Shown here piece by piece: positions 30,696 through 40,386 of a DNA stretch of 64,000 nucleotides. How positions within the stretch are numbered: position 1 is the stretch's first letter; every line of letters begins with the position of its first letter. The notes beneath the pieces are model-generated. The model ran no database searches. It was not told the origin of the DNA and was given only the letters and a program-made list of their open reading frames with translations. Source of the stretch: Minisyncoccota bacterium (GTDB lineage: Bacteria; Patescibacteriota; Minisyncoccia; Phycocordibacterales; UBA9973); the NCBI GenBank assembly GCA_041661005.1, contig JBAZVG010000001.1:196917-260916 (forward strand). The letters run 5' to 3'. Position numbers and translations under genes: made by a program.

Positions 30696-30766
30696 TGGGG
30701 GATCGTCTAATGGTAGGACACATCCCTTTGAAGGATGTTATTTTGGTTCGAGTCCAAGTCCCCCAG
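30696..30766 (+). tRNA. tRNA-Gln (anticodon UUG)
   Basis: Acceptor TGGGGGA/TCCCCCA, anticodon stem-loop CATCC-CUUUGAA-GGATG, T-loop TTCGAGT. GC content jumps immediately at its 3' end. Confidence 0.8.
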
Positions 30767-32446
30767 CACGTTTGGACTCACAGAGGCGGATGCCTCATTT
30801 GGCCCTTTCGACAGGCCAGTATTTTCAGGTTCGATTGGCTTGTTTTCGGTTTCTGTATCCGACATGGACTTTTCGAGGATGAAGAACGGTTCGCGGGCTT
30901 CAATGCTCAGCTTTTTGGCCTTCAAAGTTAGGTTCGATCCGAATGTCACCAGCATCTCCTCTTTGGTCTTCGCATCGCCGTTCGCGAACCGCTCCCGAGC
31001 GGTCGAGGCAAATTCAAACGTGTCTTCGGACAGTTTTAACTGCTGCTCAATCCGCTTCCCGGCATCCTGAAGCAACTCCTCCAAAGCGGACTTTTCTTTG
31101 AGTAGCTTCACCCTCCTCTGACCGTATTCCTCATCCGATAGCTGGCTTCCGTCTGCGTTGCTGGACGAGGTTTTCAGACCCACCAGATTGTCGATTTCCT
31201 GCAAGCACGCTCGATATGCCTTCTGCTGGGCTTCGATGATGGCGCTTTGCTCCATGCTCTCCTTCGCGTGCAATTCATGGAGGAATTTGATGCAGTAGGC
31301 TTTGAATTTCTCGGAAATATGGATGCGGCCAAGATATTCACGAATCTGCCTTTCGAGATCAAATGCACTCACACTCTTCTGCGGACAAGATGGACGTTTG
31401 CTTTTTGAACAATGGTAATAGGTGTAGTGAAGGAAGAGCGGGTTCGTCATTTCTTCGATCGATGTCTGGCAGCGCGGGCAGGCGTTTCGCTTGCGGTAGG
31501 CAAACTTGAACCGGCATTGGCCACACATGACCTGGTGCTTTTCCTCAGCGGTCACCATCCGGTCACACTCGCCACAACGGATGAGGCCGGTGAAAGCAAA
31601 TTCAAAGTGCGATTGAGGCCGCGGACTGCCGTTGCGGCCAAGCAAAGTCTGCACCCGGTCATATTCCGCTTCGGTGATCATCGGCTCGTGCTTTCCCTGA
31701 TACCACTTGTTGCTGCCGTTTGGATATTCAAACCAGCCGTAATAGAAGGGCTTGGTGAAGATCTGGTAGATGGCGCTTCGGCAAAGAGGCTTGCCACCCA
31801 TCTTGCGCGTTGGCCTCGTGCGGAAGGCCCACTCTTTGTTGGCGATTTCCAGAATTCTCGGCGGGGTGTAGAGGCCGGTCAGCATCAAATCCCACATGCG
31901 ACGGAGCAGAGGAAAACGCTCCGGATCTTTGACCAGAGTGTTTTCGCCCGTCAGCTTGTCGGTGTGGTTCAAGTAGCCTGCCGGGGCGACGCCGGGATAC
32001 CAGCCGTTTTCGGTCTTGGTCTTGAGTCCCCGTTTTACGTTTTTGCTCAGGTCGTCCACGTATTTCTGCGCCATGCCGAATTCGATATACATGAGGATGA
32101 TATTGTCATCTTCACGGGCGTAAGTCTGGGCCGGGGTCATGATCCTGATGCCATGCTGTTTGATGCCCCAGATGATGGAACCTCCGTCCACCGGATTACG
32201 CGCCAGACGATCAAGTTTCCAGCAGATGACGCCGGCAGCTTCACCACGGTAAAGGCGTTGCATCATCTGATTGAACACCGGGCGCCCCGGATCTTTTGCG
32301 GATTTCGACTCGGTCAATACTTCGACAACTTGTAAATTTAACTTGGCCGCCAACTGCTCCAATTCGCGGGTTTGGGATTCAATGGAAAGAATCTGCCGGT
32401 CTTCGGCTTCGGATGATTTGCGACAATAGATGAAGTATCCTGACAT
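30707..32446 (-). CDS. Large serine recombinase (integrase of a tRNA-Gln-associated island)
   Basis: N-terminal resolvase catalytic domain IYCRKSSEAEDRQ..SIESQ ... LDRLARN, a recombinase domain, a zinc ribbon CGECDR...CGQC...CPRC, and a coiled coil. Its 3' end overlaps the tRNA-Gln 3' half on the opposite strand. Confidence 0.8.
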   Translation of the reverse strand: MSGYFIYCRKSSEAEDRQILSIESQTRELEQLAAKLNLQVVEVLTESKSAKDPGRPVFNQMMQRLYRGEAAGVICWKLDRLARNPVDGGSIIWGIKQHGIRIMTPAQTYAREDDNIILMYIEFGMAQKYVDDLSKNVKRGLKTKTENGWYPGVAPAGYLNHTDKLTGENTLVKDPERFPLLRRMWDLMLTGLYTPPRILEIANKEWAFRTRPTRKMGGKPLCRSAIYQIFTKPFYYGWFEYPNGSNKWYQGKHEPMITEAEYDRVQTLLGRNGSPRPQSHFEFAFTGLIRCGECDRMVTAEEKHQVMCGQCRFKFAYRKRNACPRCQTSIEEMTNPLFLHYTYYHCSKSKRPSCPQKSVSAFDLERQIREYLGRIHISEKFKAYCIKFLHELHAKESMEQSAIIEAQQKAYRACLQEIDNLVGLKTSSSNADGSQLSDEEYGQRRVKLLKEKSALEELLQDAGKRIEQQLKLSEDTFEFASTARERFANGDAKTKEEMLVTFGSNLTLKAKKLSIEAREPFFILEKSMSDTETENKPIEPENTGLSKGPNEASASVSPNVLGDLDSNQNNILQRDVSYH

Positions 32447-32532
32447 GGAAATGGGTGATTAAAATAAGGGAGGCGGGCGACCTTGGAGCCTGCATCCCTA
32501 TGCTAACGTACCGGCAAAATACGTCAATGAGG

Positions 32533-32796
32533 TCACTGGCTAAGACGGTTCTCGTCGGGCTCCTTGTCTGAACCCGGCTGCTTCAGAATCCCGAAGAAGC
32601 GAAGTAGACGCACAGCGATTTCTTGGATCTCGTCGTCGCTAAGACGCTTACCGAACTCCTCTTGGTAAATGGCTCTGAACTCCTCGATAGCTTCACGACT
32701 TAGTTGTTGTGGTGTTTTCATATCGTCCACTTTACTTGCTGTTACTCTTCGGCAAAGGACGGAAGAATTGCCACATACGGCATGTCCGCATTGCAC
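32533..32796 (-). CDS. Small helical hypothetical protein upstream of the recombinase (possible directionality or regulatory factor)
   Basis: ORF only; the likely true start is an internal Met (MKTPQQLSREAIEEF...). Confidence 0.3.
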   Translation of the reverse strand: MQCGHAVCGNSSVLCRRVTASKVDDMKTPQQLSREAIEEFRAIYQEEFGKRLSDDEIQEIAVRLLRFFGILKQPGSDKEPDENRLSQ

Positions 32797-33024
32797 TTGG
32801 AACTAGAATTCGGGGCACCTCCCTTGACGAATAGCGAGTTTCGTGCTTAAATACGAAAACCTTCCACCGAGTTCAAGAAGCTCGGTGTTTAATAGGTTTG
32901 CCATTTCTGGCAAAGGTTCCCGCCTTTGGTATTTTTACCATTGAGATATGGTGGTGTCGTGGAACTCGCATTGGGTTCCTCCGCTTCCACACTGATGACT
33001 TCACTTCAACTTCCAAACTATTTG

Positions 33025-33366
33025 CTATCTAATCGAAAACGCCTGACTCTTTCTCAAGAAGAGGTCGCATTTCTGTTGGGAGCGGGAAGGCGGCGTATTG
33101 TCCACCTTGGTCGTCGCGGCGAGCGTGACCCGCGAGAGGCGGTTGCCGGCATCGTCGTAGGCGTATGACTCAGCCGAACCGTCGGAATATGCGGCGTTGG
33201 TGAGGCGGGACAGGGGGTCGTGGGAATGCTCGAAAGTGGCGCCATTTACTTGCGATATCGCAAGGATAATGCAACCGCAGGCCAAAACGTAAACAGCGGT
33301 AAACATAATACACCTCATACTAGTTATTGTTAAATACGTTAAATACGATTCGGATAACCAACCCAA
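33025..33366 (-). pseudogene. Fragment: signal peptide plus a single YD/RHS repeat (YAYDDAGNRL), likely a remnant of an RHS-family protein
   Basis: Hydrophobic N-terminus MFTAVYVLACGCIILAISQVNGA, then a YxYDxxGRL-type repeat, then an unrelated tail. Confidence 0.4.
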
Positions 33367-33471
33367 TCATTGTAATCGAAATAACTAACCACATAGGTGG
33401 AAGAAGCGGCCCATCATGACCGAAAAATAAACCACGTAAAAACGAAATTATCTGCTGGATTGTTTGCTTTT

Positions 33472-34962
33472 TCATGGAAGCTGAAAGAGATTTATATAAG
33501 CGTTCACACCCTGTTGAATTTGATCGCCTCGCAGTTGGAAAAGATTTAACGTATAGGTGTTCAAAAAAACAGCGCTATACGAAGTCAAAGCATCATCAAC
33601 AGACTGCCACGCCTCAAGCGGATTATGTAGTGCATACGTCAGGTTCTCGTCAATGTGCATAATACTTTCACCCAGAGTGCTGAAATCGACGCCCCGAGCA
33701 CGCAATTCGGCCTGACTTGATTGGAAAACGCCGTAAACAGTGGAGGCCCTTGCAGTTAATCTGAGCGTGCGACCGATACCATGAAGGTCGATAACGTTTC
33801 CCGGTGATAATCGCAGTTGTCCAATCGTAACTCGACCGTATCCCGTATCCACATACAGTTCGAGCCGCGAACCAATTTCGCGCAACAGCCATTCAATCGA
33901 TTCTCTTGGCAAATCGCCAAAATTTAATTGACCGAATATATTGCCTGAGGTTGTTCCTCCTTCCTGCGCCGACAAGCCACTTACATCAAGCCATTTCAAA
34001 GGATTGTTCAGCGCATACACATAGCGATTCAAACTCTGCCCGTCGCTGTCCTTCCCAGTAACTGGGTCTTTAGTGGCAAATCGGCCCAGTTGCGGGCTGA
34101 AATAGCGAGCGCGGGCATGATAAAGACCATTACCGTCATCCATGATACCATACCGCCCCAGATAACGGAAGGGCTGCGGAGAATCCCCCTCGGAATTCGC
34201 CACGACGCCAAACGAATCAAACGCGTAGGCGTCGGTTTCGTCTCCGTTGGTGTTGAATGAATCATTCCCACCGATGGACTGAACTTGATGCGAATACAGT
34301 TTGTTAATCAGACGTTCGCGTTCCATGAACTGCTCTGGTTGCAGAAATGGACGATCCCAGCGTAAGTAGTGTTTGAAATAAATACATCTGAGAATGGTTC
34401 GCATCTCTGACGCACTAACGAGTACACGCTGATCTGGTAAGAGCACCATTAAGTCTGCTGGATAACTTGTCTGTCCATCGTAAGTTTGAAGAACTGGATA
34501 ATGGTAAGCAAAATCCACGGTGCGAAATCCGAGTCGCTTGAAATACCCGATCAGTTTGTCGTCGGGCTCCCATTGTTGGGAACTATTCCGCCTCCGTGCT
34601 ACCTCAAACACAATGGAAAAACCAGGTGGGTAGTTCTGTGCGAGAAACTGTTCTATACTCCTAATAGCACGACTTGGCAAAAGGCCAGGCCGTTTGGAGT
34701 CGCGAATGCATAGATACTCAAAGAAGAAAAGTTGTTCCTCTATGAAAAAGCTGTACTGCAAATATCCCACAACGGTGTGGTCATTTTGAAGTGCAAAGCA
34801 TTTGAACTCATCGGCGAGAACTTCTTTGCTGTGCTCGATCCAATAGAGAATCTGGCGCTCTGGATTCTGAGCTTCCGGCAGTATGGTTTCCCGGTAGATA
34901 CTCAAAGCTGCATACAAGCGATTCTTCCCGCGATTTGTCCGGTCGATTGGCTTAAGAAACAT
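33472..34962 (-). CDS. Chimeric protein: N-terminal GNAT-like fold, RHS repeat-associated core domain, C-terminal ~170-aa variable (toxin-like) domain
   Basis: The core reads PFRYLGRYGIMDDGNGLYHARARYFSPQLGRFATKDPVTGKDSDGQSLNRYVYALNNPLKWLDVSGL, which matches the RHS core consensus (..Y.ARYYDP..GRF.S.DP ... N.Y.Y..NNP....DPSGL). The N-terminus FSIVFEVARRR..KLIGYFKRLGF is GNAT-like. Confidence 0.55.
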   Translation of the reverse strand: MFLKPIDRTNRGKNRLYAALSIYRETILPEAQNPERQILYWIEHSKEVLADEFKCFALQNDHTVVGYLQYSFFIEEQLFFFEYLCIRDSKRPGLLPSRAIRSIEQFLAQNYPPGFSIVFEVARRRNSSQQWEPDDKLIGYFKRLGFRTVDFAYHYPVLQTYDGQTSYPADLMVLLPDQRVLVSASEMRTILRCIYFKHYLRWDRPFLQPEQFMERERLINKLYSHQVQSIGGNDSFNTNGDETDAYAFDSFGVVANSEGDSPQPFRYLGRYGIMDDGNGLYHARARYFSPQLGRFATKDPVTGKDSDGQSLNRYVYALNNPLKWLDVSGLSAQEGGTTSGNIFGQLNFGDLPRESIEWLLREIGSRLELYVDTGYGRVTIGQLRLSPGNVIDLHGIGRTLRLTARASTVYGVFQSSQAELRARGVDFSTLGESIMHIDENLTYALHNPLEAWQSVDDALTSYSAVFLNTYTLNLFQLRGDQIQQGVNAYINLFQLP

Positions 34963-35287
34963 AGATAATTGTTAATTATCCGTGATGTGGGCGAGATGTC
35001 TTGTTCGGAAATGTGTGTTTCGTATCCGACATTGCGGTAGTCAGTGCAGGAGACCAAGGAAGATGTTGCTAGTCTGCTGGATTCCTCTCTCTTGGTTCTT
35101 CGCAAGACAGTGTTCTGTCACAAAAGTGATCGAATTACAGTGGGCTTTTGTTTTCGGAGCGAGGCTTTGATAACGGATTTCTGGTGCATACACATACCAC
35201 AGCCTAATGTTTTTGAATTACTGGTCTATGAGTTATGATTGTCCTCCTGCGAGATTTATAGAGAAATAGTTTGCTGGATGAGGGCGT

Positions 35288-35761
35288 ATGTTGAGGTATA
35301 TGCATATTTGGTGCTATAATGAGAACATGTGGGTTATTTATGCATTTATAGCTGCATTGTTGTGGGGTCTTGATTATGCACTTACAGAAAAAGTACTAAA
35401 CAGGATTACATTCTCGACATTGCTCAGTATTGAGTTGTTTTTCGGTCTGCTTGGTATGCTCTTGTTGGGGCTTTTACGGGGGACGTATTGGAAAGACTGG
35501 TCAGTGATTCTCTCTTCCCAAAAGATAATATGGCACGTTGTTATAATTGTGCTTGTGTTCAACATCGCCAACACTTTTATCGTTCTTTCCATTGGAAACA
35601 AGAACGCCACCCTTGCGGGCTTAATTGAGATTTCTTACCCCTTGTTTATTGCCGTTTTTTCGTGGTTCTTGTTCAAGGAGAGCCATGTTAACCTATGGAC
35701 AGGAATTGGTGCGGTATTGGTGTTTAGCGGGATTGGGTTGATCTACTACGTCAACAAATGA
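35288..35761 (+). CDS. EamA/DMT-family transporter half (4-5 TM), hypothetical
   Basis: Hydrophobic protein with an EamA-like WGLDYALTEK region; 157 aa, likely a fragment. Confidence 0.4.
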   Translation: MLRYMHIWCYNENMWVIYAFIAALLWGLDYALTEKVLNRITFSTLLSIELFFGLLGMLLLGLLRGTYWKDWSVILSSQKIIWHVVIIVLVFNIANTFIVLSIGNKNATLAGLIEISYPLFIAVFSWFLFKESHVNLWTGIGAVLVFSGIGLIYYVNK

Positions 35762-35862
35762 AGAGGAAAAGGGACGCTCATCCTTGCCGGCGTCGGCAAA
35801 TAAGAAAAAGGGCGACCCGATTGGATCGCCCTTGTGATTAGTAGTCTTCCGGCACCCAAGCG

Positions 35863-36240
35863 GTGAGTTTGTTTGAGCAGGCAATTTTGGTCGCTCAAGC
35901 ATTACATGATTTGCGATATGAAGGATTCTGGATGGGTAGTCTTGGTGTCCTTTATATGGAAGAAAAGCACTACAAGGACGCGGAAGCTTTCTTGCAACGC
36001 GCTTTGGCAATCGCTATTCAAATAGGTGACCAACGTTACGAAGGAACGCATTTGAGTTGGCTTGGGGATTTATACACCACGACGGGCCAATTTCAGAAAG
36101 CTCGTGAATGCCTTGAAAGGGCCGTGAAATTGGCAGAGGATCTGCAGATTGAATCATGGATTCAGCAGCGCAAAGCGAAAATTGAGAAATTGGAACGTTT
36201 GGAGAAGGAGGCGGGTGACCACGCTCGTCCTCAAATCTGA
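35863..36240 (+). CDS. TPR-repeat protein fragment
   Basis: Three TPR-like helical repeats (..AE.FLQRALAIA...GDQRYEG..L..LGDLY...GQFQKA.E.LERA..LA). Confidence 0.4.
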   Translation: MSLFEQAILVAQALHDLRYEGFWMGSLGVLYMEEKHYKDAEAFLQRALAIAIQIGDQRYEGTHLSWLGDLYTTTGQFQKARECLERAVKLAEDLQIESWIQQRKAKIEKLERLEKEAGDHARPQI

Positions 36241-36855
36241 TTGGACCTTATTGGACAAAGCTCGAACTCTTTTCGATGAACATCGAAGTGATACGCAGAA
36301 AACGATGCCGATGAACCGACCGGATGATTTCACCGTCGCGCTCGGTGATTTGGATGGGGGCAACCGCAGATGCGCGTTTGAAACGGGGAAGACGATGGGA
36401 TTCCATCCATCCACGGTAACGAAGATCAAGCTCCTAATGTAGGAGGCGGGGTTTGCGCACTGCGCCAAGTCACATAATCTCGGTGATGTTTCAGTATAAT
36501 CATTGGAAGCAAATTGTCACTATTACATTAACACTCTGCAATCCTAGCTTGACGGACAATAGGCACTTACTTACGGATAAACGATAAAAGCCCCTTCGGG
36601 GTGTTGGATGATGAATAATGGATGTTCAAACGCGCCAATATCGTAGCACAAAAAAAACTCCGAATACATACAATGACGTATTCGGAGTCACGCTTTGATA
36701 CAACCAACAGATGCGTGATTCTTGTTGGGCGACCCTTTGGTCCGCTCAAGGCTCGGGTAGATCCAAGAGAAGCCGAGTTAAGACGAGGTTATCCCAGGGA
36801 ACTCGGACTGCTGGGACACACATTATAGCACAGGTAAGTGGCAATGTGTCATCAT

Positions 36856-37581
36856 CTAAACATTGTCGTCTTGATTTAGTCCACCCCTTACCTCCGCTAG
36901 CCTCCGCGACAGAGACAGCAATTCGTCTTCCATTCCAAAATATGACCAGTCCTGAATGTAGCGGGTGTAGAACGAGTAAATGCCAGCACTGAATCCGTTC
37001 AATAGCCTATCCGATATCCACTCATTTCCAAACTCAATACGGAAATCATCGAGAATGTCATCATTCTTGAGTCTTAAGAGTTCCGCAGCTTCGCCTTCAA
37101 CTGCGTCTTGGCACAACGCTAAAACCTCTCGACAGCGTTGCCTGATGTCTAACTGGTGCGTCGGAATACGGGTCCAGTTATGGCGTTCGGAGAGGTGGAG
37201 GTCATCTCTAAAGCATCCAAGGAGTGTATCGTTAGTCGCCAATTCTTCCCAGATCTTCCGGGCTCTTGGAGTGACCGTAATTGCGTCGCCTGGACTCAAT
37301 AAAGATGGTGCATACCCTCTGTCAGATTCAATCAAGCGTTCGGCATATAATTCATCGAGCATGTCGCTCATCTGCTCTGGCTTTTTCGCGAAATAGCTAG
37401 CACCAATTGCATTCATGGCATCCAACGTCCATGGCGACCGTGTGCGCTCTTCAACGAATGGTTCCACCAGTCGGCGATGAGAATGCGGCTGCCACAACGG
37501 CAGCAGATGGGGAATCAACCAGCGCTTGCCACCCGGCCATTTGAGCGGTGGCCGGTTCTCCGTTGTGCTCGTAATCGGCAA
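36856..37581 (-). CDS. Hypothetical protein with an N-terminal remnant of a D12-class (Dam-like) adenine MTase motif
   Basis: PLKWPGGKRWLIPHLLPL....RLVEPFVE matches the Dam N-terminal motif (KWAGGK..L...I......Y.EPF.GGG), but the rest is unrelated. Confidence 0.35.
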   Translation of the reverse strand: MPITSTTENRPPLKWPGGKRWLIPHLLPLWQPHSHRRLVEPFVEERTRSPWTLDAMNAIGASYFAKKPEQMSDMLDELYAERLIESDRGYAPSLLSPGDAITVTPRARKIWEELATNDTLLGCFRDDLHLSERHNWTRIPTHQLDIRQRCREVLALCQDAVEGEAAELLRLKNDDILDDFRIEFGNEWISDRLLNGFSAGIYSFYTRYIQDWSYFGMEDELLSLSRRLAEVRGGLNQDDNV

Positions 37582-37743
37582 GGCTGGAGAGAAGTCACGC
37601 GAGTTGTGACTGACGACAGAAACACGCCTTTGAAATGGGCGTAGATGAGTGCGGCTGCCCGTTCTGCTTTGTGACCATAGGCTCGAACATCGTCCAGTCC
37701 TCTCAGCATTTTAAATGAGAGTGATTACTTGCAATTATCCTTG

Positions 37744-37766
37744 CTTGCAATGAAAAAAATTGCAAG
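37744..37766. promoter_or_regulatory. Dyad CTTGCAAT-N7-ATTGCAAG (plus an extra TTGCAAT half-site at 37729) upstream of an extended -10 (TGATATAAT ~37787-37795) preceding the putative REase gene
   Basis: Read from the sequence. Confidence 0.4.
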
Positions 37767-37801
37767 TTTATAACTTTCTAGGAAAGTGATATAATCCCAA
37801 C

Positions 37802-38638
37802 ATGTCTAGTAATTTAATCGGAAAAACAGAAGCTATCAATTTTCTTAATGTATCAGAAAAAGATTTTAAAAATTACCATGAATCTAGTAAAGAAATAGAA
37901 GGTCAAAAAATATCAGGAAGATGGTATTTTGATAAACAAAAATTAGAAGAATGGAAAAAATTAAAGGGAGAAAGAACCATATTTTTAACTATTAGTGAAT
38001 ATGAAAAATGTTTTCAATTTGCAATTAAAATGGTTTATGGAGGACTTTCTCTTAATGGAATAAGAGGACAAAGAACAGAGGTTCAAGCAGCAGACGATGT
38101 TATTTTAGGAATTCTTGCAGAACATGCTGTTAAGAATTTTCTAAAAAATAAATTCTCAATCGAAATAGAATTAGACGAAGAAGTTCACCCAGAACGTATT
38201 ACCCCTCAAGACTTTGATAAAATCAAGGTAAATAATGTTTTCAAAACACCTAAAATAGGTGTGGGTATCAAAGCAAGTAAAATGAAAAACGCCTTTTTGG
38301 TTTTAGGAGGTAATGAAGTAGACCTCAAGGAAAGAAGAAGTGATGTTTATGTATTTGCCAGAGTAGGTTTACCAAGCGACCACTTATTTAGGATTTTACG
38401 AGACCATTCATTCTTTAAACAAGTAAGAGAATTTATGGATAAAGATAAAAAATTTAGAAAAATAGAATTACTAAAACCAATTCCAATATGGATATGTGGT
38501 TTTACATACAAAGAAGAGTTAGAAAAAGTAACTGAAATTCCGGGTCAAGAATTTGCAAATGGGTATAGATATGTTAAGTCTGTAAGTAAACTTCACAACT
38601 CAGACCAAGACTGGAAAAATCTTATAAAAAAACTTTAA
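37802..38638 (+). CDS. Putative type II restriction endonuclease with N-terminal excisionase/MerR-type HTH (HTH_17-like)
   Basis: Convergent with and abutting a C5-MTase gene (2-nt gap). N-terminus LNVSEKDFKNYHES..ISGRWYFDKQKLEEWKK matches the (G)RW.F....L..W pattern. No clear PD-(D/E)xK motif could be assigned by eye. Confidence 0.5.
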   Translation: MSSNLIGKTEAINFLNVSEKDFKNYHESSKEIEGQKISGRWYFDKQKLEEWKKLKGERTIFLTISEYEKCFQFAIKMVYGGLSLNGIRGQRTEVQAADDVILGILAEHAVKNFLKNKFSIEIELDEEVHPERITPQDFDKIKVNNVFKTPKIGVGIKASKMKNAFLVLGGNEVDLKERRSDVYVFARVGLPSDHLFRILRDHSFFKQVREFMDKDKKFRKIELLKPIPIWICGFTYKEELEKVTEIPGQEFANGYRYVKSVSKLHNSDQDWKNLIKKL

Positions 38639-38639
38639 T

Positions 38640-39647
38640 CTAGTATGCCATGGCTAGGGACAACCTAGGTTGTGTAGCTTGTTGCGTTTGTCCATTCAGC
38701 ACCTCCTGAATATTGTTCGCAATTCTACCAATGACAGAAATACTTACGGAATTACCGAATTGTTTATATAAATGTGAATCTGAAATATTTGGTAATTTAT
38801 AGGAATTAGGAAAACCTTGTAGGCGAGCACATTCTCTTGGTGTTAACTTTCGTATACCACGAGAATCCCTTACTAAGGGGACATTATGACCTCCTGTACC
38901 CATATTTGCAGTTAAAGTAGGACATACTCCACTTTTATTATGTCTTATATATTGTCGTCTCCATTGATAGACATCTCCAATTTCAAAATCGTACTTTTTT
39001 AACTTTTCAAACAAAGGTTTGTCGTTATAATAGTATTTCTGATCAATAAATTCTGGCTTTTCCAAAATATCTAAAACAGTTTTATTTCTTTCAATTTTTT
39101 CAGGAAATTCAAAACTATTAATATATCCAGTATCTTTTCTAAAACCAACAATATATATCCGCTCTCTGTTTTGGGGAACATTCCCATAATGCATACTATT
39201 TAATATTTCAGCTTTAACATCATAACCAAGCTCATCCAATGTTTTCAGAATGACACGAAATGTATTTCCATTATCATGATTATAAAGATTTTTTACATTT
39301 TCTAAAAGAAAGCCAATGGGTTTTCTTTCATCAATTATTCTTGCAACATCAAAAAATAAATTACCCCTGTCATCTTTAAATCCATGACGATAACCAGCAA
39401 TAGAAAATGCCTGACATGGGAATCCACCCAATAAAAAATCAAATTGGGGTAAATCACTAATTTTAATTTTTCTTATATCCTCAACAGTTAAAGCTGTATC
39501 TTTAAAATTTAGATCGTAAGTATCTTTGCATTTAGGTTCAAAATCATTAGCAAAGACTGTATTAAAGCCAGCTTTTTCAAAGCCAATTCTTATACCTCCG
39601 ACTCCCGCAAATAAGTCTATTGTTCTATATTTTTTTACATTTGCCAT
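38640..39647 (-). CDS. DNA (cytosine-5)-methyltransferase
   Basis: Motifs I DLFAGVGG, IV GFPCQAFS, VI ENVKNL, VIII QNRERIYIVG, X RKLTPRECARLQGFP. Confidence 0.9.
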   Translation of the reverse strand: MANVKKYRTIDLFAGVGGIRIGFEKAGFNTVFANDFEPKCKDTYDLNFKDTALTVEDIRKIKISDLPQFDFLLGGFPCQAFSIAGYRHGFKDDRGNLFFDVARIIDERKPIGFLLENVKNLYNHDNGNTFRVILKTLDELGYDVKAEILNSMHYGNVPQNRERIYIVGFRKDTGYINSFEFPEKIERNKTVLDILEKPEFIDQKYYYNDKPLFEKLKKYDFEIGDVYQWRRQYIRHNKSGVCPTLTANMGTGGHNVPLVRDSRGIRKLTPRECARLQGFPNSYKLPNISDSHLYKQFGNSVSISVIGRIANNIQEVLNGQTQQATQPRLSLAMAY

Positions 39648-39718
39648 TGATTATAATTATAACATTATCCCTTTAAAAAAGCAGCAATCAACTTTTACAG
39701 TTATGTTATAATGCTTTT

Positions 39719-40084
39719 ATGAGTGATGAAGAGAATAGTATAAATAGACTAGGCATTGACCAGACTAGTTTGGGGAAACTAAAACCTGAAGATCTTAATA
39801 ATGCAAAAACTGCTGGAATGGTTTTAAATTACTTAACCTCTCTAGAGTCTGAAAATACTCAACTTAAAACAAAAAATGAAACCTTGAGTACTTATGTGAG
39901 TAGTTATAATAATCAAAAAAATAATTCAAAAATTGCTGCAACTTTATCTTTAATTTCAGTTGTCTCTATTGGTTTTGCAATAAATATTCTTACAAGTGAT
40001 AGTAAAAATTATGGAGGTTATATACTTTTAATCATTGGTATTGTGCTGCAGTTATATAGTACCTATTTAACTTATAAAGAATGA
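39719..40084 (+). CDS. Hypothetical membrane protein (2 C-terminal TM)
   Basis: ORF only. Confidence 0.35.
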   Translation: MSDEENSINRLGIDQTSLGKLKPEDLNNAKTAGMVLNYLTSLESENTQLKTKNETLSTYVSSYNNQKNNSKIAATLSLISVVSIGFAINILTSDSKNYGGYILLIIGIVLQLYSTYLTYKE

Positions 40085-40386
40085 GATATATTTTTAATAC
40101 ATCAGGTGAATACGTGGCCTTTATTTCAGGAGATAATTTATTTAATCTGAACTGCGATTGGATTGGTTTTATTTTAAACGGCAATGAAGTTTATTCATCA
40201 AACGATTTATCTTTTATTGGCTATATTAGTGCAGATGATAGAATCTTAGGTAAAAGAAATGATTTACGTAAACTTCGTCCATTACGACCACTTCGTCCAT
40301 TACGACCACTTCGTCCATTACGACCACTTCGCAGACTAAGAATGCTTAGAGTGCCTTATCCATGGTTTGATGTGTTTGAAAAATAA
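40081..40386 (+). CDS. Hypothetical protein with (LRP)n tandem repeat
   Basis: The ORF contains RKLRPLRPLRPLRPLRPLRRLRMLR, encoded by a 9/18-bp DNA tandem repeat (40272-40335). Confidence 0.3.
   Translation: MRYIFNTSGEYVAFISGDNLFNLNCDWIGFILNGNEVYSSNDLSFIGYISADDRILGKRNDLRKLRPLRPLRPLRPLRPLRPLRRLRMLRVPYPWFDVFEK

What the first reader, a model, noticed from the sequence alone, without database searches (positions are those of the whole stretch)
37729..39647. Convergent type II R-M pair in which the putative endonuclease carries its own N-terminal HTH and faces a dyad operator
A canonical Dcm-type MTase (all ten motifs visible) ends 2 nt from the convergent gene 37802-38638, a 278-aa protein with no detectable homology beyond an N-terminal excisionase/MerR-like HTH (ISGRWYFDKQKLEEWKK). 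Its promoter region contains CTTGCAAT-N7-ATTGCAAG plus a third half-site. A REase that autoregulates through a fused HTH, replacing a separate C protein, would be an uncommon control architecture. Alternatively, the protein is not a nuclease but a regulator or Vsr-like partner.
Basis: partly seen in the sequence, partly recalled or inferred. Interest (0 to 1): 0.6.

Follow-up and report, generated by a model that had tools for sequence, protein, structure and literature searches.

The report
Restriction enzyme with built-in HTH domain
This is a normal-looking restriction-modification gene pair from a candidate-phyla (Paceibacterota) bacterium; its cutting enzyme belongs to a widespread, unnamed family that always carries a small DNA-binding domain at its front end, and about 120 related loci indicate that this domain is a fixed part of the enzyme, not a replacement for the usual control protein.

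Summary

In 112 of 124 loci examined (123 related loci plus the window) a cognate-type methyltransferase lies nearby. The target is probably GCNGC, an inference from site avoidance.

The proposed mechanism, a fused HTH replacing a C protein and autoregulating at the dyad, is not supported by comparison:
- The HTH is present across the family.
- Fifteen loci keep it and also carry a separate XRE-type C gene; the two inspected have canonical C-boxes.
- The closest relatives (79-84% identity) have the same HTH recognition helix and a near-identical wing but no TTGCAA sites.

The array is specific to this locus, its binder is unknown, and it begins 18 bp from the edge of a foreign island. C-REase fusions are already documented (CR.NsoJS138I).

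Verdict: a new member of a known kind, from an unannotated REase family.

The parts
37728..37735 (+). Repeat copy 1, CTTGCAAT (contains palindromic TTGCAA). It lies 18 bp inside the low-GC side of the island boundary.
37744..37751 (+). Repeat copy 2, CTTGCAAT. It is the left arm of the dyad CTTGCAAT-N7-ATTGCAAG. It could also serve as a -35-like hexamer (TTGCAA-N18-TATAAC); that reading is mine, made directly from the sequence.
37759..37766 (-). Repeat copy 3 (ATTGCAAG on the + strand), the right arm of the dyad. It ends 1 nt before the predicted -35 hexamer.
37767..37795 (+). Predicted promoter of the R gene: TTTATA, 17 nt, then TG-extended TATAAT. The -10 hexamer ends 6 nt before the ATG and there is no Shine-Dalgarno sequence, so the mRNA is probably leaderless or nearly so.
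   Evidence: Family-wide, -10-like hexamers pile up 0-7 nt before the ATG and only 6 of 92 upstream regions have an SD-like motif. Inference only.
37802..37972 (+). R gene, residues 1-57: excisionase/AlpA/MerR-type winged helix-turn-helix domain.
37973..38638 (+). R gene, residues 58-278: PD-(D/E)xK nuclease body. Proposed active site: E107, D137 (in P-Q-D), G155-I-K157 and possibly E172. R91 is invariant and lies in a low-confidence loop.
38640..39647 (-). C5-cytosine DNA methyltransferase, full length, with no HTH extension.
39650..39691 (-). Candidate promoters of the M gene. A GCAGC (GCNGC) site at 39681-39685 lies between the hexamers of one candidate.
   Evidence: Consensus matches only.

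Best explanation
This is an intact type IIP restriction-modification cassette.

Shown: the methyltransferase is a standard m5C enzyme. The 278-aa partner is a PD-(D/E)xK restriction endonuclease of a large family that is not in Pfam or NCBIfam and is labelled 'hypothetical protein' in all 5 named public records inspected. The two genes travel together across CPR bacteria, DPANN and other archaea, Firmicutes and Bacteroidota.

Inferred: the system most likely recognises GCNGC. The N-terminal excisionase/MerR-type winged helix is a constitutive module of the enzyme. It most probably helps hold or read substrate DNA, as winged-helix domains do in SdaI, FokI, DpnI and NaeI. It is not a substitute for a C protein. 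The R gene appears to be expressed from its own TG-extended -10 promoter as a leaderless or near-leaderless mRNA. It converges on the M gene with 1 nt between the stop codons and no predicted terminator. The three CTTGCAAT copies just upstream of the -35 hexamer are a real cis-element but are specific to this locus. They sit at the junction with a ~7-kb foreign island and their binding protein is unknown.
For: Nuclease:
- AF2 model with pLDDT 87 and pTM 0.86.
- Invariant E107 and D137 and an xIK motif across distant relatives.
- PADLOC REase_II hit.

R-M linkage:
- 38 of 40 genome loci and 112 of 124 loci overall have a homologous C5 MTase nearby; 83 are convergent and adjacent, and 9 of the rest are contig ends.
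- Vsr or a mismatch glycosylase is often linked.

The HTH is constitutive and is not a C substitute:
- It is present in all full-length members recovered.
- Fifteen loci also have an XRE-type C gene directly upstream. L007 and L037 share C-boxes.
- Relatives at 79-84% identity share the recognition helix (E/D)KDFKNYHESS and have a near-identical wing, yet lack TTGCAA sites.
- The repeat arrays seen in some archaeal loci (TGCACA x3-4, GTCCGA x4) differ from one another while the HTHs there are nearly the same.

GCNGC target:
- O/E is 0.37-0.42 in native window DNA and 0.77 in the island.
- O/E is 0.56 over 123 R-M loci (median 0.44) against 0.98 in unrelated control contigs.
- A Bsp6I-family (GCNGC) REase gene sits beside this R gene in L035 and L036, where one homologous C5 MTase was detected.
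- GCGC is not depleted (O/E 1.14).

Promoter.
Against: - No biochemical data exist. Cleavage, specificity and the role of the HTH are all inferred.
- HTH-less relatives of 232-242 aa exist and are complete genes. The nuclease body can therefore stand alone, which leaves room for a regulatory role of the HTH.
- The HTH is less conserved than the core (50% versus 66% mean pairwise identity).
- Nothing else encoded in this cassette has a DNA-binding domain that could read the TTGCAA array.
- The first acidic position of the (D/E)xK motif is Gly in this clade.
- The controls for GCNGC avoidance are not taxonomically matched.
Confidence: 0.62

Rival explanations
1. In this C-less cassette the endonuclease's own N-terminal wHTH binds the CTTGCAAT-N7-ATTGCAAG dyad and the third copy next to the -35 hexamer, and autoregulates R transcription. 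It would be a fused controller, analogous to CR.NsoJS138I but with an Xis/MerR-type HTH instead of an XRE-type one.
For: - The array is non-random and abuts the -35 hexamer of the R promoter.
- R is the only protein in the cassette with a DNA-binding domain, since M has no HTH extension.
- The HTH is dispensable in some distant relatives, so it is a separable module.
- C-REase fusions that retain both activities exist (PMC3850674).
- Some archaeal cassettes with different neighbours also carry repeat arrays upstream of R.
Against: - The array occurs in 1 of about 92 distinct upstream regions.
- The nearest relatives share the recognition helix and lack any such site.
- Fifteen loci combine the HTH-bearing R gene with a separate XRE-type C gene; the two inspected also have C-boxes.
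- The archaeal arrays differ in sequence (TGCACA versus GTCCGA) while the HTHs are nearly unchanged.
- The half-sites are 15-16 bp apart centre to centre, about 1.5 helical turns. To my knowledge that is atypical for a dimeric HTH operator.
Confidence: 0.13
2. The TTGCAA array is unrelated to control of the R-M system. It would be a remnant or functional end of the adjacent ~7-kb foreign island, for example a recombinase or accessory-protein site. Alternatively it is a binding site for a host or island transcription factor, or simply a set of -35-like hexamers.
For: - GC content falls from about 50% to about 27% at roughly 37.71 kb, 18 bp before copy 1.
- The other island end carries tRNA-Gln and a large serine recombinase ORF.
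- Serine-recombinase att sites are imperfect dyads (my own knowledge).
- The array does not travel with the R-M cassette in any relative.
- TTGCAA-N18-TATAAC reads as a plausible promoter.
Against: - No matching repeat was found at the left island end.
- All three copies lie on the low-GC, cassette side of the boundary.
- No candidate binding protein was identified.
- The dyad with any spacer occurs in viral contigs only 26 times in 2.9 million contigs, which by my rough estimate is about the chance rate, so nothing links it to a mobile-element family.
Confidence: 0.2
3. The 278-aa protein is not a restriction enzyme. It would be a repair nuclease (a Vsr-like partner of the m5C methyltransferase) or a DNA-binding regulator with a degenerate nuclease fold.
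For: - The canonical first acid of (D/E)xK is Gly155 in this clade.
- No characterised homologue carries a name.
- The best fold hits are a Holliday-junction resolvase (Hjc) and a homing endonuclease (I-Ssp6803I), not REases.
Against: - E107, D137 and K157 are invariant or nearly so in the family, and D or E occupies position 155 in relatives.
- Fifteen loci carry a separate bona fide Vsr beside R and M.
- Linkage to an MTase is tight, and GCNGC is strongly avoided in flanking DNA.
- A PADLOC REase_II profile matches.
Confidence: 0.05

Closest known systems
Type IIP R-M systems with an m5C methyltransferase (HhaI-type MTase architecture; Bsp6I, Fnu4HI and Cac824I as GCNGC systems)
   Same: Separate R and M genes. 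The C5 MTase is full length, with M.HhaI as its best solved relative (2e-67). Vsr or a mismatch glycosylase is frequently linked. GCNGC avoidance and the Bsp6I-family neighbours in L035 and L036 point to GCNGC.
   Different: The REase has no sequence similarity to R.HhaI (no PDB sequence hit) or to Pfam RE_Bsp6I. The MTase TRD does not align well with that of M.HhaI, and GCGC is not avoided. Specificity has not been measured.
Modular REases with a winged-helix DNA-binding domain joined to a PD-(D/E)xK domain (SdaI, FokI, DpnI, NaeI); named from my own knowledge, except DpnI and NaeI, which appear
   Same: A small wH/wHTH domain joined to a PD-(D/E)xK catalytic domain. The domain is a constant part of the enzyme.
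   Different: Here the domain has the excisionase/MerR (HTH_17-like) fold, lies at the N terminus and is only 57 residues long. Whether it reads the target, binds a second site or only anchors DNA is unknown. Foldseek found no whole-chain structural match in the PDB.
C-REase fusions (CR.NsoJS138I, PvuII family; Liang and Blumenthal 2013, PMC3850674)
   Same: An HTH at the N terminus of a type IIP REase, and no separate C gene in this particular locus.
   Different: In that family the HTH is an XRE-type C protein with conserved C-boxes, and the fusion replaces the separate C gene. Here the HTH is Xis/MerR-type, is present across the whole family, coexists with separate C genes in 15 loci, and has no conserved operator.
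Canonical C-protein-controlled R-M operons (PvuII, Esp1396I, AhdI and others)
   Same: Some relatives (L007, L037, L001, L010 and 11 others) have exactly this arrangement: an XRE-type C gene that ends next to or overlaps the start of R. Shared C-boxes were seen in L007 and L037.
   Different: The window locus has no C gene, and the TTGCAA repeats do not resemble those C-boxes.
Archaeal Holliday-junction resolvase Hjc, I-Ssp6803I and D212 (minimal PD-(D/E)xK nucleases)
   Different: Sequence identity is 8-14%. These proteins lack the HTH and the C-terminal subdomain and are not linked to an MTase. The resemblance is in fold only.

Membership tests
Type II restriction-modification system | A complete DNA methyltransferase with catalytic motifs | tested here: met
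   PF00145 at 4e-97 over profile 1-323/324 and TIGR00675 at 2e-104. PCQ, ENV, QxRxR and GNSV motifs present.
Type II restriction-modification system | An adjacent gene encoding a nuclease, with linkage conserved across unrelated genomes | tested here: met
   112 of 124 loci have the homologous MTase nearby, 83 of them convergent and adjacent. Hosts span CPR, DPANN, Asgard, Firmicutes and Bacteroidota.
Type II restriction-modification system | Site-specific cleavage that is blocked by the cognate methylation | not testable with these tools
   Indirect evidence only: GCNGC O/E of 0.56 in DNA flanking family members against 0.98 in control contigs.
PD-(D/E)xK nuclease superfamily | The alpha-beta-beta-beta-alpha-beta core fold | tested here: met
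PD-(D/E)xK nuclease superfamily | Catalytic signature: E on helix 1, D at the start of strand 2, (D/E)xK on strand 3 | tested here: inconclusive
   E107 and D137 are invariant across the superfamily and K157 is nearly so. The first position of (D/E)xK is Gly155 here but D or E in several relatives. E172 may compensate, as in Cfr10I and NgoMIV (that analogy is from memory).
C-protein control, or C-REase fusion | XRE/Cro-type (HTH_3) C domain | tested here: not met
   No HTH_3 hit. The fold is excisionase/MerR type. True HTH_3 C proteins are encoded separately in relatives.
C-protein control, or C-REase fusion | A conserved operator (C-box) upstream that travels with the regulator | tested here: not met
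   The TTGCAA array is unique to the window among about 92 distinct upstream regions. It is absent from relatives at 79-84% identity.
C-protein control, or C-REase fusion | The fusion replaces the separate C gene, so the two are mutually exclusive | tested here: not met
   Fifteen loci have both a separate C gene and the HTH-bearing R gene. C-boxes are seen in L007 and L037.
C-protein control, or C-REase fusion | The protein binds its own promoter and changes transcription | not testable with these tools
   This needs EMSA or a reporter assay.
Excisionase/MerR-like winged HTH (Pfam HTH_17 clan) | Fold: strand, helix-turn-helix, beta-hairpin wing, then a C-terminal helix | tested here: met
Excisionase/MerR-like winged HTH (Pfam HTH_17 clan) | A score above the Pfam gathering threshold | tested here: not met
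   16.7 bits against a 27-bit cut-off. Two of the 120 listed homologues carry a precomputed PF12728 hit.

The most novel reading that the evidence does not exclude
In cassettes that lack a C gene, such as this one, the endonuclease's own Xis/MerR-type winged helix would bind promoter-proximal repeats (here 3 x CTTGCAAT) and time or limit expression of a leaderless R transcript. That would be a second type of controller-endonuclease fusion, structurally unrelated to the known XRE-type C-REase fusions. It would occur in a REase family abundant in CPR bacteria and DPANN archaea.
Probability: 0.12. Interest if true: 0.55.

Novelty: new member of a known kind. Interest (0 to 1): 0.3.

Why it matters
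The finding gives a probable function (PD-(D/E)xK restriction endonuclease) to a protein family that carries no functional name in the public records inspected and matches no Pfam or NCBIfam model. The family has 388 homologue clusters at 90% identity and 175 representative clusters at 50% identity. It is common in the small-genome CPR and DPANN lineages.

It also gives a testable specificity prediction (GCNGC) and candidate active-site residues. For R-M regulation the main message is a caution: an HTH fused to a nuclease, next to a dyad, is not enough to infer autoregulation. Here comparative data argue that the HTH is an integral enzyme module.

If the minority reading were right, it would add a second class of controller-endonuclease fusion.

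Tried and rejected
- PDB sequence search with R found nothing. Foldseek against the PDB gave no significant whole-chain hit, only local matches to the N-terminal domain. The AFDB library was unavailable.
- Pfam and NCBIfam gave nothing for R beyond a sub-threshold HTH_17 hit. Pfam on ten distant relatives returned no relevant family.
- tblastn of R against annotated plasmids gave no match. Against phages it gave only a weak hit to a hypothetical protein of Aeropyrum spindle-shaped virus 1.
- The public names of R relatives and R-like paralogues that I looked up are all 'hypothetical protein' where a name exists.
- HhaI-like GCGC specificity is rejected. GCGC O/E is 1.14, there is no GCGC in the cassette, and the TRD aligns poorly with that of M.HhaI.
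- TTGCAA as the restriction target is rejected. It occurs 35 times in the window and contains no GCNGC.
- The TTGCAA pairs seen upstream of R in L046, L047, L051, L055 and L056 lie inside the coding sequence of the upstream C-like gene (…FDVLQLKEFAK…), so they are coincidental.
- A scan of viral contigs for the dyad with any spacer gave 26 hits in 2.9 million contigs. By my rough estimate that is about the chance rate and is uninformative.
- A search for repeats shared by the two island ends found nothing convincing.
- I tried to link Cac824I (CAC1502, GCNGC) to this family through the literature, but the paper contains no sequence information.
Full report
**What is there**

The window comes from a Candidatus Paceibacterota (CPR) genome. 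The 278-aa protein is 100% identical to a 'hypothetical protein' on an 813-kb contig.

ORF 38640-39647 (minus strand, 335 aa) is a complete C5-cytosine methyltransferase. It matches Pfam PF00145 at E 4e-97 over the whole profile and TIGR00675 at 2e-104, and its best solved relative is M.HhaI at 2e-67. It starts directly with motif I, so it has no regulatory N-terminal extension.

ORF 37802-38638 (plus strand, 278 aa) converges on it, with one nucleotide between the stop codons.

Upstream of the 278-aa ORF, CTTGCAAT occurs at 37728 and 37744, and its inverted copy ATTGCAAG at 37759. Copies 2 and 3 form the described CTTGCAAT-N7-ATTGCAAG dyad.

This is more than chance. Paired TTGCAA at this spacing occurs 3 times against 0.12 expected. 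Only three places in the 64 kb hold any 8-mer three times within 45 bp, against a simulated mean of 0.23; the other two are a coding tandem repeat and an A-rich word.

**Is the 278-aa protein a nuclease?**

Sequence libraries say little. Pfam gives only a sub-threshold HTH_17 hit for residues 10-52, NCBIfam gives nothing, and no PDB sequence matches. A PADLOC type II REase profile does match residues 46-203 at E 1.7e-10.

Foldseek finds no whole-chain analogue in the PDB.

I aligned the protein with distant relatives recovered by an exhaustive profile search, which found 175 representative clusters. Only R91, G103, E107, D137 and G233 are invariant. The column after D137 reads (D/E/G/S/N/Q)-[I/V]-K. 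This is the PD-(D/E)xK signature, here P-Q-D137 … G155-I-K157 with E107 on the preceding helix. In this clade the first acid is Gly. The invariant E172 may substitute for it, by analogy with Cfr10I and NgoMIV; that analogy is from memory and was not tested.

The protein has a nuclease fold and is not a Vsr.

**Is it the partner of the methyltransferase?**

I collected 40 loci from genomes and 80 from metagenomes, plus three nearest relatives. Counting the window itself, that makes 124 loci.
- 112 have a homologous C5 MTase within the stored stretch. In 83 it is convergent and adjacent. Nine others end at a contig edge.
- The hosts range over Patescibacteria, DPANN and Asgard archaea, Methanosarcinales, Clostridia and Bacteroidota. 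That spread is the horizontal-transfer pattern typical of R-M cassettes.
- Fifteen loci carry a Vsr gene next to R or between R and M; the L017 copy matches Pfam PF03852.
- One HTH-less relative is followed by an ORF whose sequence I read as a MutY/Nth-type glycosylase; this was not checked against a profile.

Both accessory genes fit m5C systems.

**Likely specificity**

GCGC is not avoided (O/E 1.14), and the TRD aligns poorly with that of M.HhaI. GCNGC is the most depleted short palindrome:
- O/E is 0.37-0.42 in the native parts of the window and 0.77 in the foreign island.
- O/E is 0.56 over 123 family loci, with a median of 0.44 per locus.
- O/E is 0.98 in 26 unrelated viral contigs.

In L035 and L036 a Bsp6I-family REase (PF09504, GCNGC) lies beside this R gene, and one homologous C5 MTase was detected. 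I therefore infer GCNGC, with moderate confidence. The control set is not taxonomically matched.

**Does the HTH replace a C protein and act at the dyad?**

Four comparative results argue against this.
1. The HTH is a constant of the family. It is present in every full-length member recovered. The hydrophobic core and K20, N24, S29, E31, K36 and R40 are conserved, although the domain as a whole is less conserved than the core (50% versus 66% pairwise identity).
2. Fifteen loci have an XRE-type (HTH_3) gene that ends next to or overlaps the start of an R gene which still has the HTH. In L007 (a CPR bacterium) and L037 (Xanthomarina) this C gene is preceded by the same GCTAAyTATAGTATGT…ACTAAAGTTAGC element, a canonical C-box. 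A controller fused to R would make such a gene redundant.
3. The TTGCAA array is unique to the window among about 92 distinct upstream regions. The three closest relatives (79-84% identity) share the recognition helix ((E/D)KDFKNYHESS) and have a near-identical wing, yet have no such site and only short or absent intergenic regions. The TTGCAA pairs in five other loci lie inside the coding sequence of the upstream C gene.
4. Some archaeal cassettes do carry repeat arrays upstream of R: TGCACA x3-4 in L022, L028 and L032, and GTCCGA x4 in L029. These arrays differ in sequence while the HTHs are almost the same.

- R is the only DNA-binding protein encoded in this cassette.
- The array abuts the -35 hexamer of the predicted promoter.
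- HTH-less relatives of 232-242 aa exist as complete genes, so the HTH is a separable module.

The idea also has precedent. CR.NsoJS138I is a natural C-REase fusion with both activities (PMC3850674). Even if the model were true, this would be a variant rather than a new principle.

**Most likely mechanism**

R is transcribed from TTTATA-17-TGaTATAAT (37767-37795). The -10 hexamer ends 6 nt before the ATG and no Shine-Dalgarno sequence is present, so the mRNA is probably leaderless. Across the family, -10-like hexamers cluster 0-7 nt before the ATG, and only 6 of 92 upstream regions have an SD-like motif.

R and M converge without a predicted terminator, so transcriptional interference is possible but untested.

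I take the wHTH to be a substrate-DNA-binding module, as in other REases that combine a winged helix with a PD-(D/E)xK domain. This is an inference.

**Context of the array**

GC content rises from about 27% to about 50% at 30.8 kb, immediately after tRNA-Gln (30696-30767). A 579-aa large serine recombinase ORF lies there. GC falls back at about 37.71 kb, 18 bp before the first CTTGCAAT.

The island also holds an Rhs-like toxin fragment and a Dam fragment. The array therefore sits at an island junction. It could belong to the island's end or be a host or island regulator site. I found no matching repeat at the other end and no candidate binding protein.

**Verdict**

This is a real R-M pair with a genuine endonuclease from an unannotated family. 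The nuclease reading is supported. The 'HTH replaces C' reading is not supported by comparison, although it is not excluded for this single locus.

Noticed in passing
window 30696-37710: A ~7-kb foreign island with GC about 50% against about 27-30% in the flanks. It starts right after tRNA-Gln (30696-30767) with a 579-aa large serine recombinase ORF (30707-32446, minus strand) and ends 18 bp before the TTGCAA array. It contains an Rhs-core-like fragment (ORF 33472-34962) and an ORF (36856-37581, minus strand) whose first ~40 residues match the Dam methyltransferase N terminus while the rest is unrelated, so it is probably a gene remnant.
   Followed up: partly
window, whole; loci L001-L123: GCNGC is strongly under-represented. 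O/E is 0.37-0.42 in native window DNA, 0.77 in the island and 0.56 across 123 loci carrying this R-M family, against 0.98 in unrelated viral contigs. GGCC, GATC and GTAC are also depleted (0.5-0.75), which hints at further R-M pressure in these genomes.
   Followed up: partly
window 39681-39685: A GCAGC (GCNGC) site lies between the -35-like and -10-like hexamers of one candidate M promoter. If GCNGC is the target, methylation here could feed back on M expression, as reported for CfrBI. This is pure speculation.
   Followed up: no
L036 4001-8283; L037 4001-7476: In two Bacteroidota loci, several extra REase-like genes lie between R and the single homologous C5 MTase detected. In L036 these are a 350-aa ORF, a 256-aa ORF and a Bsp6I-family gene. 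In L037 they are a 275-aa and a 253-aa ORF. The 350-, 256- and 253-aa ORFs are distant paralogues of this family. This looks like a pile-up of nucleases around one methyltransferase.
   Followed up: partly
L022, L028 (=L100), L032 upstream of R; L029/L098 upstream of R: Some DPANN archaeal cassettes carry direct-repeat arrays upstream of R: TGCACA(T/A)T(A/T)AATA x3-4, or GTCCGA x4. The neighbouring genes differ, so the arrays travel with the cassette. The TGCACA units resemble a BRE plus TATA box and may be tandem promoters. They remain unexplained.
   Followed up: partly
window 40270-40330 (ORF 40081-40386): An 18-bp tandem repeat encodes (LRP)n at the C-terminal end of a small 'beta-flower' (PF21784) protein just downstream of the R-M pair.
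   Followed up: no
92 distinct upstream regions of R genes (loci L001-L123): R genes of this family almost never have a Shine-Dalgarno motif (6 of 92). Their -10-like hexamers cluster 0-7 nt upstream of the ATG, which suggests leaderless R transcripts across the family.
   Followed up: partly
cluster 3 (Dehalobacter sp. TBBPA1): In Dehalobacter sp. TBBPA1 the family member is annotated as two fragments of 49 and 215 aa, which probably reflects a disrupted R gene.
   Followed up: no
phage record HE580238.1 28615-29220: The only hit in the phage collection is a hypothetical protein of Aeropyrum pernix spindle-shaped virus 1. It is 27% identical over residues 46-239 (E 3e-7), so a virus encodes a relative of the nuclease core.
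   Followed up: no
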